Virus record (IMG/VR): IMGVR_UViG_2636415477_000004
Location: 1-16,048 of that record
Length of the DNA stretch: 16,048 bases
Direction: 5' to 3' (one strand)
Source of the DNA: a virus
Taxonomy: Duplodnaviria > Heunggongvirae > Uroviricota > Caudoviricetes
Numbering within the stretch: position 1 is the first letter of the stretch; each line of letters begins with the position of its first letter. This document shows positions 4,797-6,734 of the stretch, piece after piece. Below the pieces are notes generated by a model. It was not told where the DNA came from and made no database searches. It saw only the letters and a list, made by a program, of their open reading frames with translations. The translations under genes were made by a program, and so were the position numbers.

Positions 4797-6734
4797 GTGA
4801 CTCTTAAACGGGCCTGTTCCCTGCTGACGGTGAAATCCTTCAGTGAGGATGAGCGGGTGATCACCGGGATTGCGTCAACGCCTTCTCCGGATCGGGATGG
4901 GGACATCCTGGAGCCGGAGGGCGCGGAGTTTGGCAGTGCGATCCCGTTTCTCTGGCAGCATGACCATTCCCGCCCGGTGGGGCAGTGTACGGTGCGCCGG
5001 GTCAGCGAAGGGCTGGAAATCACGGCAACACTGGCGAAGCCCGTGCCGGATATGCCATCGCAACTGGCTGCCCGGCTGGATGAGGCCTGGGCGGCCATTA
5101 AGACCGGGCTGGTCAGGGGGCTGTCCGTGGGCTTCCGTCCTCATGAATACACCTTTCTGGACGGAGGCGGACTGCATTTTCTGCGCTGGGAACTGATGGA
5201 GGTGTCTGCCGTCACCGTGCCCGCGAATGCGGAATGCACCATCCGGACCATTAAATCTTACGACCGCCCGTTTTCTGCCGCGTCCGGCAACCGGAAACCG
5301 GTGGTGAAAATCGCATCTTCTGCCGGCGCTGCGGCACAGTCAACAACCGTTTTTCATAAGGAAAAGACCATAATGAATATTGGCGAACAGATTAAAAGTT
5401 TTGAAAACAAGCGTGCAGCGCTGGCAGCCTCCCTTGAGGAGGTCATGACCAAAGCCGCAGAGGAAGGGCGCACGCTGGATGTGGAGGAGGAAGAGCATTA
5501 CGACAACACCGCAGCGGAAATCCGTCAGGTGGATGCGCACCTGAAGCGTCTGCGTGAGCTGGAAGCCGGTAAGGCTGCCACGGCACAGCCGGTGAAACAG
5601 GCCGGTAATGGTGATGTGGTGACGGTGACTTCTGCGCCGGTGATCCGTGTGGAGCAGAAACTGGATAAGGGGATTGGTTTCGCACGTTTTGCCAAATCAC
5701 TGGCTGCGGCTAAAGGTGTCCGCTCTGAAGCCCTGGAAGTGGCCCGTCGTCAGTATCCGGATGACAGTCGTCTGCATCATGTCCTGAAATCGGCAGTGGG
5801 CGCGGGGACCACCACGGATCCGCAGTGGGCAGGCAGCCTGTCTGAATATCAGGAATACGCACAGGACTTTATTGATTACCTGCGTCCTCAGACCATTATC
5901 GGGCGATTTGGTCAGGGCGGGATCCCTGCACTTCGTCAGGTGCCGTTCAATATCCGTGTGCACGCCCAGGTGTCCGGCGGTGCTGCCGGCTGGGTGGGTG
6001 AGGGTAAGGCAAAACCCCTGACGAAGTTTGATTTTGAATCCATCACCTTCAGTCATGCGAAGGTGTCGGCCATTGCGGTACTGACGGAAGAATTGATCCG
6101 TTTTTCCAGTCCGGCTGCTGATGCACTGGTCCGTAATGCGCTGGCGGAAGCGGTGGTGGCGCGTCTGGATACAGACTTTGTGGACCCGAAAAAAGCCGCA
6201 GTGGCAGATGTCTCCCCGGCGTCCATCACCCATGATGTGAAGGGCACGGCATCAACCGGTAACCCGGATGCGGATGCAGAGGCTGCGTTTGGACAGTTTG
6301 TGGCAGCAAACCTGCAGCCCACCGGTGCGGTCTGGCTGATGTCCAGCACCAATGCCCTGGCACTGTCCATGCGTAAAAATGCGCTGGGTCAGAAGGAATA
6401 CCCGGACATGACCCTGCTGGGTGGCTCCTTCCAGGGGCTGCCGGTGATTGTCTCCCAGTACGTGGGTGACCAGCTGGTGCTGGTGAATGCCCCGGATATT
6501 TATCTGGCGGATGACGGCGGCGTGGCAGTGGATATGTCCCGCGAGGCATCACTGGAAATGCAGTCTGAGCCGACCGGCGACAGTACCACGCCGTCCCCGG
6601 TGGAGCTGGTTTCCATGTTCCAGACAGGCAGCGTGGCCATCCGTGCGGAGCGCTGGATCAACTGGCGTCGTCGCCGTACCGCGGCGGTGGCGGTGATCAC
6701 CGGTGTGAACTACGGAACTGCGTCCGGCGGCTGA
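4797..6734 (+). CDS. Prohead protease (HK97/S78-like) fused in frame to scaffold-like delta domain and HK97-fold major capsid protein
   Basis: Continuous 645-aa ORF with a GTG start after CAGGAGG. The N-terminal ~190 aa carry protease-like motifs (DRDGDILEPEGAEF...IPFLWQHDHSRPVGQ); a charged coiled-coil-like segment follows, then a capsid-length C-terminal region. Confidence 0.8.
   Translation: MTLKRACSLLTVKSFSEDERVITGIASTPSPDRDGDILEPEGAEFGSAIPFLWQHDHSRPVGQCTVRRVSEGLEITATLAKPVPDMPSQLAARLDEAWAAIKTGLVRGLSVGFRPHEYTFLDGGGLHFLRWELMEVSAVTVPANAECTIRTIKSYDRPFSAASGNRKPVVKIASSAGAAAQSTTVFHKEKTIMNIGEQIKSFENKRAALAASLEEVMTKAAEEGRTLDVEEEEHYDNTAAEIRQVDAHLKRLRELEAGKAATAQPVKQAGNGDVVTVTSAPVIRVEQKLDKGIGFARFAKSLAAAKGVRSEALEVARRQYPDDSRLHHVLKSAVGAGTTTDPQWAGSLSEYQEYAQDFIDYLRPQTIIGRFGQGGIPALRQVPFNIRVHAQVSGGAAGWVGEGKAKPLTKFDFESITFSHAKVSAIAVLTEELIRFSSPAADALVRNALAEAVVARLDTDFVDPKKAAVADVSPASITHDVKGTASTGNPDADAEAAFGQFVAANLQPTGAVWLMSSTNALALSMRKNALGQKEYPDMTLLGGSFQGLPVIVSQYVGDQLVLVNAPDIYLADDGGVAVDMSREASLEMQSEPTGDSTTPSPVELVSMFQTGSVAIRAERWINWRRRRTAAVAVITGVNYGTASGG

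What the first reader, a model, noticed from the sequence alone, without database searches (positions are those of the whole stretch)
4797..6734. Protease-capsid fusion ORF with a possible internal start for the capsid portion
Protease and major capsid protein are one 645-aa frame rather than two genes. At the junction there is an in-frame ATG (5373) preceded by AAGGAAAAG 6-14 nt upstream, the spacing of a functional ribosome-binding site. The locus could therefore yield both a full-length fusion and an independently initiated capsid protein, which would set the protease:capsid ratio.
Basis: partly seen in the sequence, partly recalled or inferred. Interest (0 to 1): 0.45.

Follow-up and report, generated by a model that had tools for sequence, protein, structure and literature searches.

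The report
Capsid gene nested inside protease-capsid fusion
A prophage gene that joins the head-maturation protease to the major capsid protein still carries a complete, evolutionarily conserved ribosome start site at the join, so it very probably makes both the fusion and a free capsid protein, a neat but not revolutionary way to set the protease dose.

Summary
Window 4797-6734 is one 645-aa ORF, with an HK97-type S78 protease at the N-terminus and a delta-domain plus HK97-fold capsid protein at the C-terminus. It has an in-frame ATG at 5373 (codon 193) and TAAGGA at 5357-5362.

The fusion itself is already known. It is annotated in Stx phages BP-4795 and 2851, in Pseudomonas phage PAJU2 and in PHROG 617, and it occurs in 23% of complete E. 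coli genomes.

The internal start has strong comparative support:
- The 30 nt around 5373 are the lowest-GC, least-structured patch of the whole ORF.
- In 73 non-redundant fused relatives, in clades as deep as 42% capsid identity, the aligned codon is always ATG or GTG.
- Its SD and unstructured context are as strong as in 36 relatives where protease and capsid are separate genes.
- The Gly codon in the SD slot is GGA in 60% of cases, against 6% elsewhere in the same genes.
- Fused and split states switched at least 6 times without loss of the start signals.

The best reading is a nested-gene arrangement like lambda C/Nu3 or herpesvirus UL26/UL26.5, yielding protease-capsid plus excess capsid. 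No protein-level evidence was available, and I found no paper describing this start. It is a new variant of a known kind, of moderate interest.

The parts
4758..4785 (+). Terminator-like hairpin (GAACCGC-TGCG-GCGGTTT) plus T-run, between the TerL stop codon and the fusion gene's ribosome-binding site
   Evidence: Found by the consensus scan. A T-run directly upstream of the protease start is conserved in most relatives.
4786..4791 (+). Shine-Dalgarno AGGAGG of the full-length fusion, 5 nt before GTG 4797
   Evidence: Sequence. Anti-SD duplex energy is -10.3 kcal/mol, and the 61-nt context has an MFE of -12.0.
4797..6734 (+). Full-length ORF (645 aa plus stop, GTG start): protease, linker, delta domain, HK97-fold major capsid protein
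   Evidence: It matches PHROG 617 'major head protein' over the whole length, with the profile boundary at 191/192 coinciding with the join. It is 95-99% identical to the annotated 'major head protein/prohead protease' of Stx phages.
4797..5288 (+). Prohead protease portion (residues 1-164), S78/HK97 gp4 type
   Evidence: Pfam PF04586 at residues 48-152 and PHROG 80 'head maturation protease' at residues 1-167. H55 and S110 are invariant in alignment A1.
5289..5372 (+). Variable linker (residues 165-192); the last codons are the translated former intergenic region that contains the SD
   Evidence: This is the only indel-rich, poorly conserved stretch of alignment A1. The model gives pLDDT below 30 and no secondary structure for residues 138-193. 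In Acidovorax L024 the homologous stretch holds the protease stop codon and a 15-nt intergenic spacer.
5357..5366 (+). Internal Shine-Dalgarno-like element TAAGGAAAAG (core TAAGGA 5357-5362, aligned spacing 8 nt)
   Evidence: Sequence. A 6-nt contiguous SD match occurs at 0.3% of background positions. An SD motif is conserved at this position in fused and split relatives even though the encoded amino acids differ (KG, KE, QG, TG, RG, QEV). GGA is used for 35 of 58 Gly codons here, against 6.3% elsewhere in the same genes.
5361..5391 (+). AT-rich, unstructured patch centred on the internal start (an open translation-initiation region)
   Evidence: It holds the lowest GC and weakest local folding of the whole ORF and the lowest GC3 window. 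The local fold is not more stable than shuffled sequence, z = 0.18.
5373..6734 (+). Nested ORF: delta (scaffolding) domain plus major capsid protein, 453 aa, from the internal ATG 5373 to the shared stop
   Evidence: It is in frame. The N-terminus MNIGEQIK aligns with the N-termini of stand-alone capsid genes in split relatives. Residues 7-63 of the solved major head protein 9gyi_B align to residues 201-257.
5373..5582 (+). Delta-domain helical hairpin (residues 193-262)
   Evidence: Predicted helices 195-223 and 229-262 are the only part of the model with pLDDT around 80. This is the position where the HK97 gp5 delta domain lies (established knowledge; summarised in PMC8508860).

Best explanation
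The locus is a two-start gene.

Ribosomes that start at GTG 4797 (SD AGGAGG) make a full-length polypeptide of about 70 kDa: prohead protease, flexible linker, delta (scaffolding) domain and HK97-fold capsid protein. Ribosomes that start independently at ATG 5373 use the TAAGGA element and the open, AT-rich context. They make the delta-domain capsid protein alone (453 aa, about 49 kDa) from the same late mRNA.

Both products co-assemble through their identical delta-plus-capsid parts. The fusion carries the protease into the procapsid covalently, in place of the non-covalent protease-delta docking used by HK97 gp4/gp5. The free capsid protein supplies most shell subunits. The ratio of the two initiation rates therefore sets the protease dose. 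After assembly the protease removes itself, the linker and the delta domains.

Shown here: the ORF architecture, the start signals, and their conservation at the nucleotide level in fused lineages. Inferred: that both proteins are made, which one is more abundant, co-assembly, and the cleavage steps.
For: (1) Architecture.

(2) Signals in the window. There is a 6-nt SD match at 8-nt aligned spacing, seen at 0.3% of background positions. The site is the least-structured, lowest-GC and lowest-GC3 patch of the 1.9-kb ORF. The other conserved in-frame Met codons (M86, M515, M580, M588, M607) sit in structured contexts with MFE of -17.6 to -24.5.

(3) Conservation. In 73 non-redundant fused relatives the aligned codon is ATG in 65 and GTG in 8, and never a Leu, Ile or Thr codon.
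- Median anti-SD energy is -5.6 in fused forms against -5.35 in 36 split relatives.
- Median MFE z-score is +2.46 against +2.50.
- An SD run of at least 5 nt occurs in 67% against 58%, with 1.8% in background.
- So the start signals show no relaxation in the fused forms.

(4) The selection acts on nucleotides. The amino acids in the SD slot vary while the purine motif stays. The Gly codon GGA is used at 60% here against 6.3% elsewhere. Median GC3 at the join is 0.47 against 0.66.

(5) The signals are not a recent relic. The window lies in an all-fused clade of 41 sequences whose capsid parts are as little as 42% identical. A second all-fused clade of 20 goes down to 45%. At least 6 fused/split switches are needed on the tree.

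(6) The split relatives show the origin. Acidovorax L024 has ...VVFLK-TAA-tcccgAAAGGAcacccc-GTG where the window reads ...TVFHKEKTI-ATG. Several relatives differ from fused ones only by one in-frame stop.

(7) No sigma-70-like promoter lies inside the ORF, so a second product would come from internal translation initiation and not from a second transcript.

(8) Precedent, from established knowledge: lambda C/Nu3 (Shaw and Murialdo 1980, cited in PMC8508860) and herpesvirus and malacoherpesvirus protease/scaffold nested ORFs (PMC11565193).
Against: - There is no protein-level or ribosome-profiling evidence for this phage group. None of the GenBank or RefSeq records inspected annotates a nested CDS.
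- By duplex energy alone the SD is ordinary, in about the top 15% of positions.
- Part of the AT-richness follows from the amino-acid composition (K, N, I, E, F) of a flexible linker and a conserved helix N-terminus.
- M-to-V is a conservative substitution, so the ATG/GTG pattern is not proof.
- The relatives are phylogenetically non-independent. They were sampled by pattern search, the tree is a quick NJ tree, and 10 junctions were snapped to the nearest ATG/GTG within 4 codons.
- A rough volume estimate of my own, not a tool result, suggests that a T=7 procapsid could physically hold a protease on every subunit. An all-fusion shell is therefore not excluded on steric grounds.
Confidence: 0.75

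Rival explanations
1. Only the full-length fusion is made. Every shell subunit starts out carrying its own protease, which cleaves itself off. On this view the start-like signals are side effects of a Lys/Asn/Gly-rich flexible linker and of a conserved Met at the head of the delta-domain helix, or are relics of an ancestral two-gene state.
For: The gene is annotated everywhere as a single CDS. The SD is not exceptional by duplex energy. The residues after M193 (N194, E197, I199-E203) are also invariant, so conservation of M193 is not unique to that residue. Linker composition explains part of the low GC.
Against: The relic idea fails. The fused clades go down to 42-45% capsid identity and still keep the start codon, the SD and the open structure at the same strength as split genes. 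The composition idea fails at synonymous sites: GGA is used at 60% against 6.3%, and GC3 dips at the join. The amino acids in the SD slot vary while the nucleotide motif persists. Substitutions of the Met are exclusively GTG.
Confidence: 0.12
2. The SD-like, AT-rich element is a translational pause or domain-boundary signal. It would slow elongating ribosomes so that the protease domain folds before the delta domain emerges. It would not be an initiation site.
For: It sits exactly at a domain boundary, after a disordered linker. Internal SD-like motifs have been proposed to pause ribosomes; this is my own knowledge and the claim is contested.
Against: It does not explain why the codon 8 nt downstream is always ATG or GTG. 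It does not explain why the same cassette is the real start in 36 split relatives, nor why mRNA structure is minimised on both sides of that codon. In some fused relatives the cassette even keeps the upstream hairpin and U-tract typical of gene starts in this family.
Confidence: 0.05
3. The free capsid protein is made, but from a separate shorter transcript driven by an internal promoter, as with herpesvirus UL26.5, and not by internal initiation on the long late mRNA.
For: The herpesvirus precedent uses nested transcripts (PMC11565193). AT-rich DNA upstream of 5373 could in principle host a promoter.
Against: No sigma-70-like promoter match was found anywhere in 4500-7000, where about 0.7 would be expected by chance. 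From established knowledge, lambdoid late genes are transcribed as one Q-antiterminated operon. The scan covers only the sigma-70 consensus.
Confidence: 0.04
4. The fusion is an artefact or pseudogene: two genes joined by a sequencing error or a recent inactivating mutation.
For: Split relatives exist, and a T5 run (5350-5354) with out-of-frame TAA codons at 5357 and 5371 lies just upstream of the ATG.
Against: The same 645-aa ORF is present in a 90%-identity cluster with 9916 member sequences. It occurs in 93 phage records, including inducible Stx phages, and in 1254 of 5426 complete E. coli genomes. It is conserved at 644-648 aa in many genera.
Confidence: 0.01

Closest known systems
ORF56 of Stx1 phage BP-4795, and its orthologues in phages 2851, YYZ-2008, Stx2-1717 and many E. 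coli O157 prophages ('putative major head protein/prohead protease')
   Same: It is the same gene at 95-99% identity, in the same module order: TerS, TerL, fusion, small ORF, portal.
   Different: Nothing differs in sequence terms. The records annotate one CDS only and make no mention of the internal start.
[quoted passage not shown]
   Same: All have a protease, a scaffold or delta segment and the MCP in a single ORF. PAJU2 is a true homologue (48% identity over the full length) with the same gene order. MD8 is described in PMC8508860 and the actinophage fusions in bioRxiv 10.1101/2020.01.10.891226.
   Different: Homology of the MD8 and actinophage fusions to this family was not tested here.
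Bacteriophage lambda genes C and Nu3 (nested, in-frame, 3'-coterminal; protease-scaffold plus scaffold)
   Same: A head-assembly protease is fused upstream of the scaffolding function. The shorter product comes from an internal in-frame start in the same mRNA (Shaw and Murialdo 1980, as cited in PMC8508860).
   Different: In lambda the nested product is only the scaffold, and the capsid protein E is a separate gene. Lambda C is from a different protease family (my knowledge). Here the nested product is the capsid protein itself, with its built-in delta scaffold.
Herpesvirus UL26/UL26.5, and the OsHV-1 capsid protease/scaffold nested ORFs
   Same: A protease-scaffold fusion plus a more abundant, N-terminally truncated in-frame scaffold. 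The fusion is the vehicle that brings the protease into the procapsid (PMC11565193; PMC4498786, listed but not read).
   Different: The herpesvirus short form comes from its own transcript. The capsid protein is separate. The system is eukaryotic.
HK97 gp4 (protease) and gp5 (delta domain plus MCP) as two adjacent genes
   Same: The same protein families (Pfam PF04586 and PF05065), the same order, and the same delta-domain logic. The 36 split relatives found here have exactly this layout.
   Different: In HK97 a stop codon separates the genes, and the protease is targeted non-covalently (my knowledge of the HK97 literature). Also, in this module the portal gene lies downstream of the capsid gene and not upstream.

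Membership tests
HK97-type prohead serine protease (Peptidase S78, PF04586) | Significant match to the family profile | tested here: met
   PF04586 at residues 48-152, 34 bits against a cut-off of 21. PHROG 80 'head maturation protease', E = 8.5e-40.
HK97-type prohead serine protease (Peptidase S78, PF04586) | Conserved catalytic His and Ser | tested here: inconclusive
   H55 (in PFLWQHD) and S110 (in GLSxGF) are invariant in 16 sequences. Equating them with the catalytic His/Ser of HK97 gp4 rests on my memory and not on a structural alignment. The model was too poor for that (pLDDT 40).
HK97-fold major capsid protein with N-terminal delta (scaffolding) domain (PF05065) | Match to the Phage_capsid profile in the C-terminal part | tested here: met
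   PF05065 at residues 386-635, 53 bits against a cut-off of 24.2. PDB major capsid protein 9d9w, E = 5e-6.
HK97-fold major capsid protein with N-terminal delta (scaffolding) domain (PF05065) | Helical delta domain of about 70-100 aa at the N-terminus of the capsid protein | tested here: met
   Predicted helices 195-223 and 229-262, pLDDT around 80. They align to residues 7-63 of the solved major head protein 9gyi_B.
HK97-fold major capsid protein with N-terminal delta (scaffolding) domain (PF05065) | Proteolytic removal of the delta domain during maturation | not testable with these tools
   This needs the N-terminus of the virion protein.
Protease-MCP fusion genes (PHROG 617, PAJU2 ORF003, BP-4795 ORF56) | Protease and capsid domains in one uninterrupted ORF, homologous over the full length | tested here: met
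   PHROG 617 covers residues 1-192 (profile 7-191) and 193-645 (profile 192-626). There is 100% coverage at 95-99% identity to Stx-phage genes and at 48% to PAJU2.
Nested in-frame head-assembly genes (lambda C/Nu3 type; works like herpesvirus UL26/UL26.5) | N-terminal protease and C-terminal scaffolding function in one ORF | tested here: met
   Here the scaffold is the delta domain, followed by the capsid fold.
Nested in-frame head-assembly genes (lambda C/Nu3 type; works like herpesvirus UL26/UL26.5) | Internal in-frame start codon with its own ribosome-binding signals at the protease/scaffold boundary | tested here: met
   ATG 5373, TAAGGA and an open context, conserved in 73 of 73 fused relatives at the same strength as in split genes.
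Nested in-frame head-assembly genes (lambda C/Nu3 type; works like herpesvirus UL26/UL26.5) | Two protein products demonstrated, with the shorter in excess | not testable with these tools
   No proteomic or profiling data were found.

The most novel reading that the evidence does not exclude
The protease/capsid boundary is a complete gene-start cassette embedded in coding sequence: SD, start codon and open mRNA, plus in some lineages a covarying hairpin and U-tract.

On this reading the stop codon at the boundary is a frequently flipped evolutionary switch, with at least 6 flips. It changes only how the protease is delivered, covalently or non-covalently, while the internal start always supplies most of the capsid protein. 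Fused and split phages would then be interchangeable states of one expression unit, and the protease:capsid stoichiometry would be set by two competing initiation sites. In the hairpin-bearing lineages, transcription termination or mRNA processing inside an ORF might also contribute.
Probability: 0.25. Interest if true: 0.6.

Novelty: new variant of a known kind. Interest (0 to 1): 0.45.

Why it matters
If the internal start is used, a gene present in about a quarter of complete E. coli genomes (1254 of 5426, up to 7 copies each) is under-annotated. The same would hold for Stx-converting phages and for many prophages of Proteobacteria. The gene would encode two proteins, and the actual building block of the capsid would be the unannotated one.

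It would extend the 'protease-scaffold fusion plus excess scaffold' logic of lambda and the herpesviruses to HK97-like phages whose scaffold is part of the capsid protein. The many natural fused/split pairs would form a ready-made comparative system for asking how the protease dose and its targeting to the procapsid are controlled.

Practically, it matters for expressing these capsids as nanoparticles and for interpreting virion proteomes. It would not overturn any principle; a phage-assembly specialist would find it satisfying but not startling.

Tried and rejected
- **Anti-SD duplex energy as the test statistic.** It was too permissive: about 13-15% of positions score as well. I replaced it with contiguous SD match at defined spacing and with local-structure and GC3 ranks.
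- **First junction-finding heuristic.** It missed 23 sequences, nearly all fused, which could have biased the result. Inspection showed they all carry AAAGG plus ATG/GTG. I replaced the finder with one based only on downstream protein similarity.
- **Structure prediction of the full fusion.** With 16 sequences it gave mean pLDDT 40 and pTM 0.25. I used it only for the disordered-linker and helix pattern and ran no fold search.
- **Conserved RNA structure at the window's junction.** None was found: z = 0.18, and no Rfam family in the window.
- **Internal promoter.** None was found.
- **ATG 5445 (M217).** GAGGAGG lies just upstream, but I rejected it as a start because the spacing is only 2 nt and the context is structured, MFE -19.3.
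- **Literature.** The PAJU2 paper and Liu and Mushegian 2004 are not held. A 2026 archaeal-virus ribosome-profiling preprint could not be opened. Six searches found no report of an internal start in a protease-MCP fusion, and no virion proteomics for the BP-4795/2851 group.
- **Frameshift idea.** I considered frameshifting or slippage at the T5 run 5350-5354 into the out-of-frame TAA codons as a way to make free protease. I did not pursue it: the run is short, and neither the run nor the TAATG overlap is conserved outside the E. coli clade.
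Full report
**What is in the window**

The 16-kb window is the late (virion) module of a lambdoid siphophage or prophage of the BP-4795/2851/Stx2-1717 group. Region 4700-6800 is 97-98% identical to more than 90 Stx-phage records.

The gene order is:
- TerS, 2512-3075
- TerL, 3072-4733
- the protease-capsid ORF, 4797-6734
- a 73-aa ORF
- a long portal ORF, 6946-9369
- connector proteins, tail tube and tape measure

The finding's ORF is real: 645 aa with a GTG start and AGGAGG 5 nt upstream. Pfam places Peptidase_S78 at residues 48-152 and Phage_capsid at residues 386-635. PHROG 617, a 626-position 'major head protein' family, covers both halves, and its profile boundary at 191/192 falls exactly at the internal Met.

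**The fusion is already known**

- BP-4795 ORF56 is annotated 'putative major head protein/prohead protease'.
- PAJU2 ORF003 is annotated 'prohead protease fused capsid protein'.
- RefSeq calls the gene 'phage major capsid protein'. The 300 nt around the join occur in 1254 of 5426 complete E. coli genomes, at up to 7 copies per genome.
- Fused homologues of 644-648 aa occur in Salmonella, Klebsiella, Enterobacter, Serratia, Pantoea, Kosakonia, Proteus and others.
- Single-gene protease-scaffold-MCP arrangements have been discussed for MD8-like Pseudomonas phages (PMC8508860) and for actinobacteriophages (bioRxiv 10.1101/2020.01.10.891226).
- None of these records or papers mentions an internal start.

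**The internal start signals in the window**

ATG 5373 is codon 193, in frame. TAAGGA at 5357-5362 is a 6-nt contiguous match to TAAGGAGGT at 8-nt aligned spacing.

By duplex energy alone (-6.2 kcal/mol) this is unremarkable; about 15% of positions match it. A contiguous run of at least 6 nt at usable spacing, however, occurs at only 0.3% of 4334 background positions in the family.

Stronger evidence comes from the context:
- All ten lowest-GC 51-nt windows (27-35% against 59.5% overall) centre on 5361-5388.
- All ten least-structured 61-nt windows (-2.0 to -6.6 against -18.6 +/- 5.0 kcal/mol) centre on 5364-5391.
- GC3 of codons -8 to +11 is 0.32 against 0.66, the lowest 20-codon window. The dip is therefore not only an amino-acid composition effect.
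- Other conserved in-frame Met codons lie in structured contexts. ATG 5445 has GAGGAGG only 2 nt upstream, which is too close.
- No sigma-70-like promoter lies in the ORF, and there is no special RNA fold at the join.

**Comparative test**

I collected 28 loci from species-representative genomes and 160 from IMG/VR with two query alignments.

Classification used phmmer hits of the protease and capsid halves to stop-to-stop ORFs. It gave 142 fused and 42 split loci. After removing redundancy there were 73 fused and 36 split sequences.

The split forms are of two kinds. Some have the two halves in the same frame, separated by one stop codon; an example is L110, 'ccc TGA aag aac atc ATG'. Others have the halves in different frames. 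In Acidovorax L024 the protease ends '...VVFLK TAA', followed by 'tcccgAAAGGAcacccc GTG'. The window's '...TVFHKEKTI ATG' is the same region read through. The last linker codons are thus a translated former intergenic spacer that contains the SD.

Results for the fused forms:
- The codon aligned with M193 is ATG in 65 and GTG in 8, and never anything else.
- SD strength, as median duplex energy, is -5.6 in fused against -5.35 in split forms.
- An SD run of at least 4 nt is present in 99% of fused and 86% of split forms, against 11% of background. For a run of at least 5 nt the figures are 67%, 58% and 1.8%.
- Openness of the mRNA, as median z of local MFE, is +2.46 in fused against +2.50 in split forms. 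The site is among the 5% least-structured windows in 85% of fused and 75% of split forms.

By these measures the fused forms are indistinguishable from split ones, where the site is by necessity the capsid start. Where the context is less open (L021, L181, L185, L188), the SD is very strong, AAGGAGG at -11 to -12 kcal/mol.

**Selection is on nucleotides, not on the linker peptide**

The residues encoded over the SD vary (KG, KE, QG, TG, RG, QEV, KEG), while the purine motif AAGGA/AAAGG/GGAGG/GAGG persists. Gly codons in that slot are GGA in 35 of 58 cases, against 6.3% of 3698 Gly codons elsewhere in the same genes. Within the E. coli clade two haplotypes differ in the spacer (accata against tcagca) and in codon 195, but not in the SD or the ATG.

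**Not a decaying relic**

On an NJ tree of the capsid parts, the window belongs to an all-fused clade of 41 non-redundant sequences whose most distant members share 42% identity. A second all-fused clade has 20 members, down to 45% identity. At least 6 fused/split changes are required. Start signals with no function would not survive that much divergence in the one segment of the protein that is otherwise free to vary and carries indels.

**Structure**

The AlphaFold model is poor overall (pLDDT 40) but informative at domain level. It shows beta-rich protease elements to about residue 138. There is no structure and pLDDT below 30 for residues 138-193. Two confident helices, 195-223 and 229-262, begin right after M193. 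This is the expected delta-domain helical hairpin. Residues 7-63 of a solved major head protein (9gyi_B) align to residues 201-257, so a stand-alone capsid protein would begin at about M193.

**Mechanism (inferred)**

- Two initiation sites on one late mRNA give the full-length protease-delta-MCP (about 70 kDa) and the delta-MCP alone (about 49 kDa).
- They co-assemble through their common part.
- The fusion delivers the protease covalently to the procapsid interior.
- The free capsid protein dilutes it to a workable dose.
- The protease then removes itself, the linker and the delta domains.

This is the logic of lambda C/Nu3 (Shaw and Murialdo 1980, via PMC8508860) and of herpesvirus protease/scaffold nested ORFs (PMC11565193). 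Here it is transposed to a phage whose scaffold is part of the capsid protein.

In both fused and split relatives the protease start sits in a more structured context (median MFE about -12.7) than the capsid start (about -6.6 to -7.4). In the E. coli clade the protease start codon is GTG. Both points fit lower initiation at the upstream site, but I did not attempt a quantitative prediction.

**Limits**

- No experimental data were found.
- The sequences are related to one another and were sampled by pattern search.
- The tree is approximate.
- Ten junctions were snapped to the nearest ATG/GTG within 4 codons.
- L020 (pseudogene), L147 and L163 (rearranged) were excluded.
- My steric estimate that an all-fusion shell is physically possible is a back-of-envelope figure and not a tool result.

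**Verdict**

The fusion is known. The conserved internal start appears to be undescribed, and it is a new variant of the known nested-gene strategy.

Noticed in passing
L114, L122, L127, L130, L139, L152, L156, L168, L173, L180 (IMG/VR loci), about 20-35 nt upstream of the internal start; for example L168 2051-2069: In a subclade of distant fused relatives, the linker inside the ORF carries a GC-rich hairpin followed by a U-tract, directly before the internal SD and start. It looks like an intrinsic terminator or an mRNA-stabilising hairpin. The stems differ by compensatory changes (4 of 7 pairs; for example GGGCGCC-TTCG-GGCGCCC against AGCCCGCC-TCT-GGCGGGTT), while the encoded peptides differ (PASGGFF, GAPSGAHSF, PANSGLFY). 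The window's own junction has only a T5 run and no hairpin.
   Followed up: partly
window 4758-4785: A terminator-like hairpin plus T-run lies between the TerL stop and the SD of the fusion gene. A T-run immediately upstream of the protease start is conserved in most relatives ('tttttcgtttcaggagg...ATG'). So 'hairpin, U-tract, SD, start' seems to be a recurrent gene-start cassette in these late operons.
   Followed up: partly
window 6946-9369, repeats at 8524-8903: The portal ORF is 807 aa, with a long C-terminal extension. The extension contains 2.3 copies of a 162-nt (54-aa) tandem repeat at 90% identity, and there is a weak CBM_5_12 hit near the C-terminus. From the offsets of the BLAST alignment, BP-4795 appears to carry two more repeat copies, and it annotates the region as two ORFs (portal 454 aa plus a hypothetical protein of 461 aa).
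   Followed up: partly
window 3072-9369; L190 (PAJU2) 455-6057: The gene order is unusual: TerL, protease-capsid, small ORF(s), portal. The portal lies downstream of the capsid gene, instead of the usual TerL, portal, protease, capsid. The order is shared with Pseudomonas phage PAJU2.
   Followed up: no
window 5350-5375: A T5 run (5350-5354) is followed by two out-of-frame TAA codons (5357-5359 and 5371-5373, the latter forming TAATG with the internal start). A shift of one base in either direction in the T-run would terminate the protease right at the capsid start, recreating a split arrangement. The TAATG overlap is not conserved in the second E. coli haplotype.
   Followed up: no
window 5428-5447: A perfect SD-like GAGGAGG lies 2 nt upstream of the in-frame ATG 5445 (M217, invariant in alignment A1). 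The spacing is too short and the context is structured, so it is probably not a start. It could still bind the anti-SD of elongating ribosomes.
   Followed up: no
window 4797; L002-L018: The E. coli clade starts the fusion with GTG. The other Enterobacterales relatives use ATG with the same AGGAGG/TGGAGG SD.
   Followed up: no
window 10904-11620 and 11626-12305: The tail tube protein carries a C-terminal Ig-like domain (Pfam Ig_2, Ig_3, I-set). The two ORFs that follow (124 aa and 93 aa) are in the position of the tail assembly chaperone pair before the tape measure gene.
   Followed up: no
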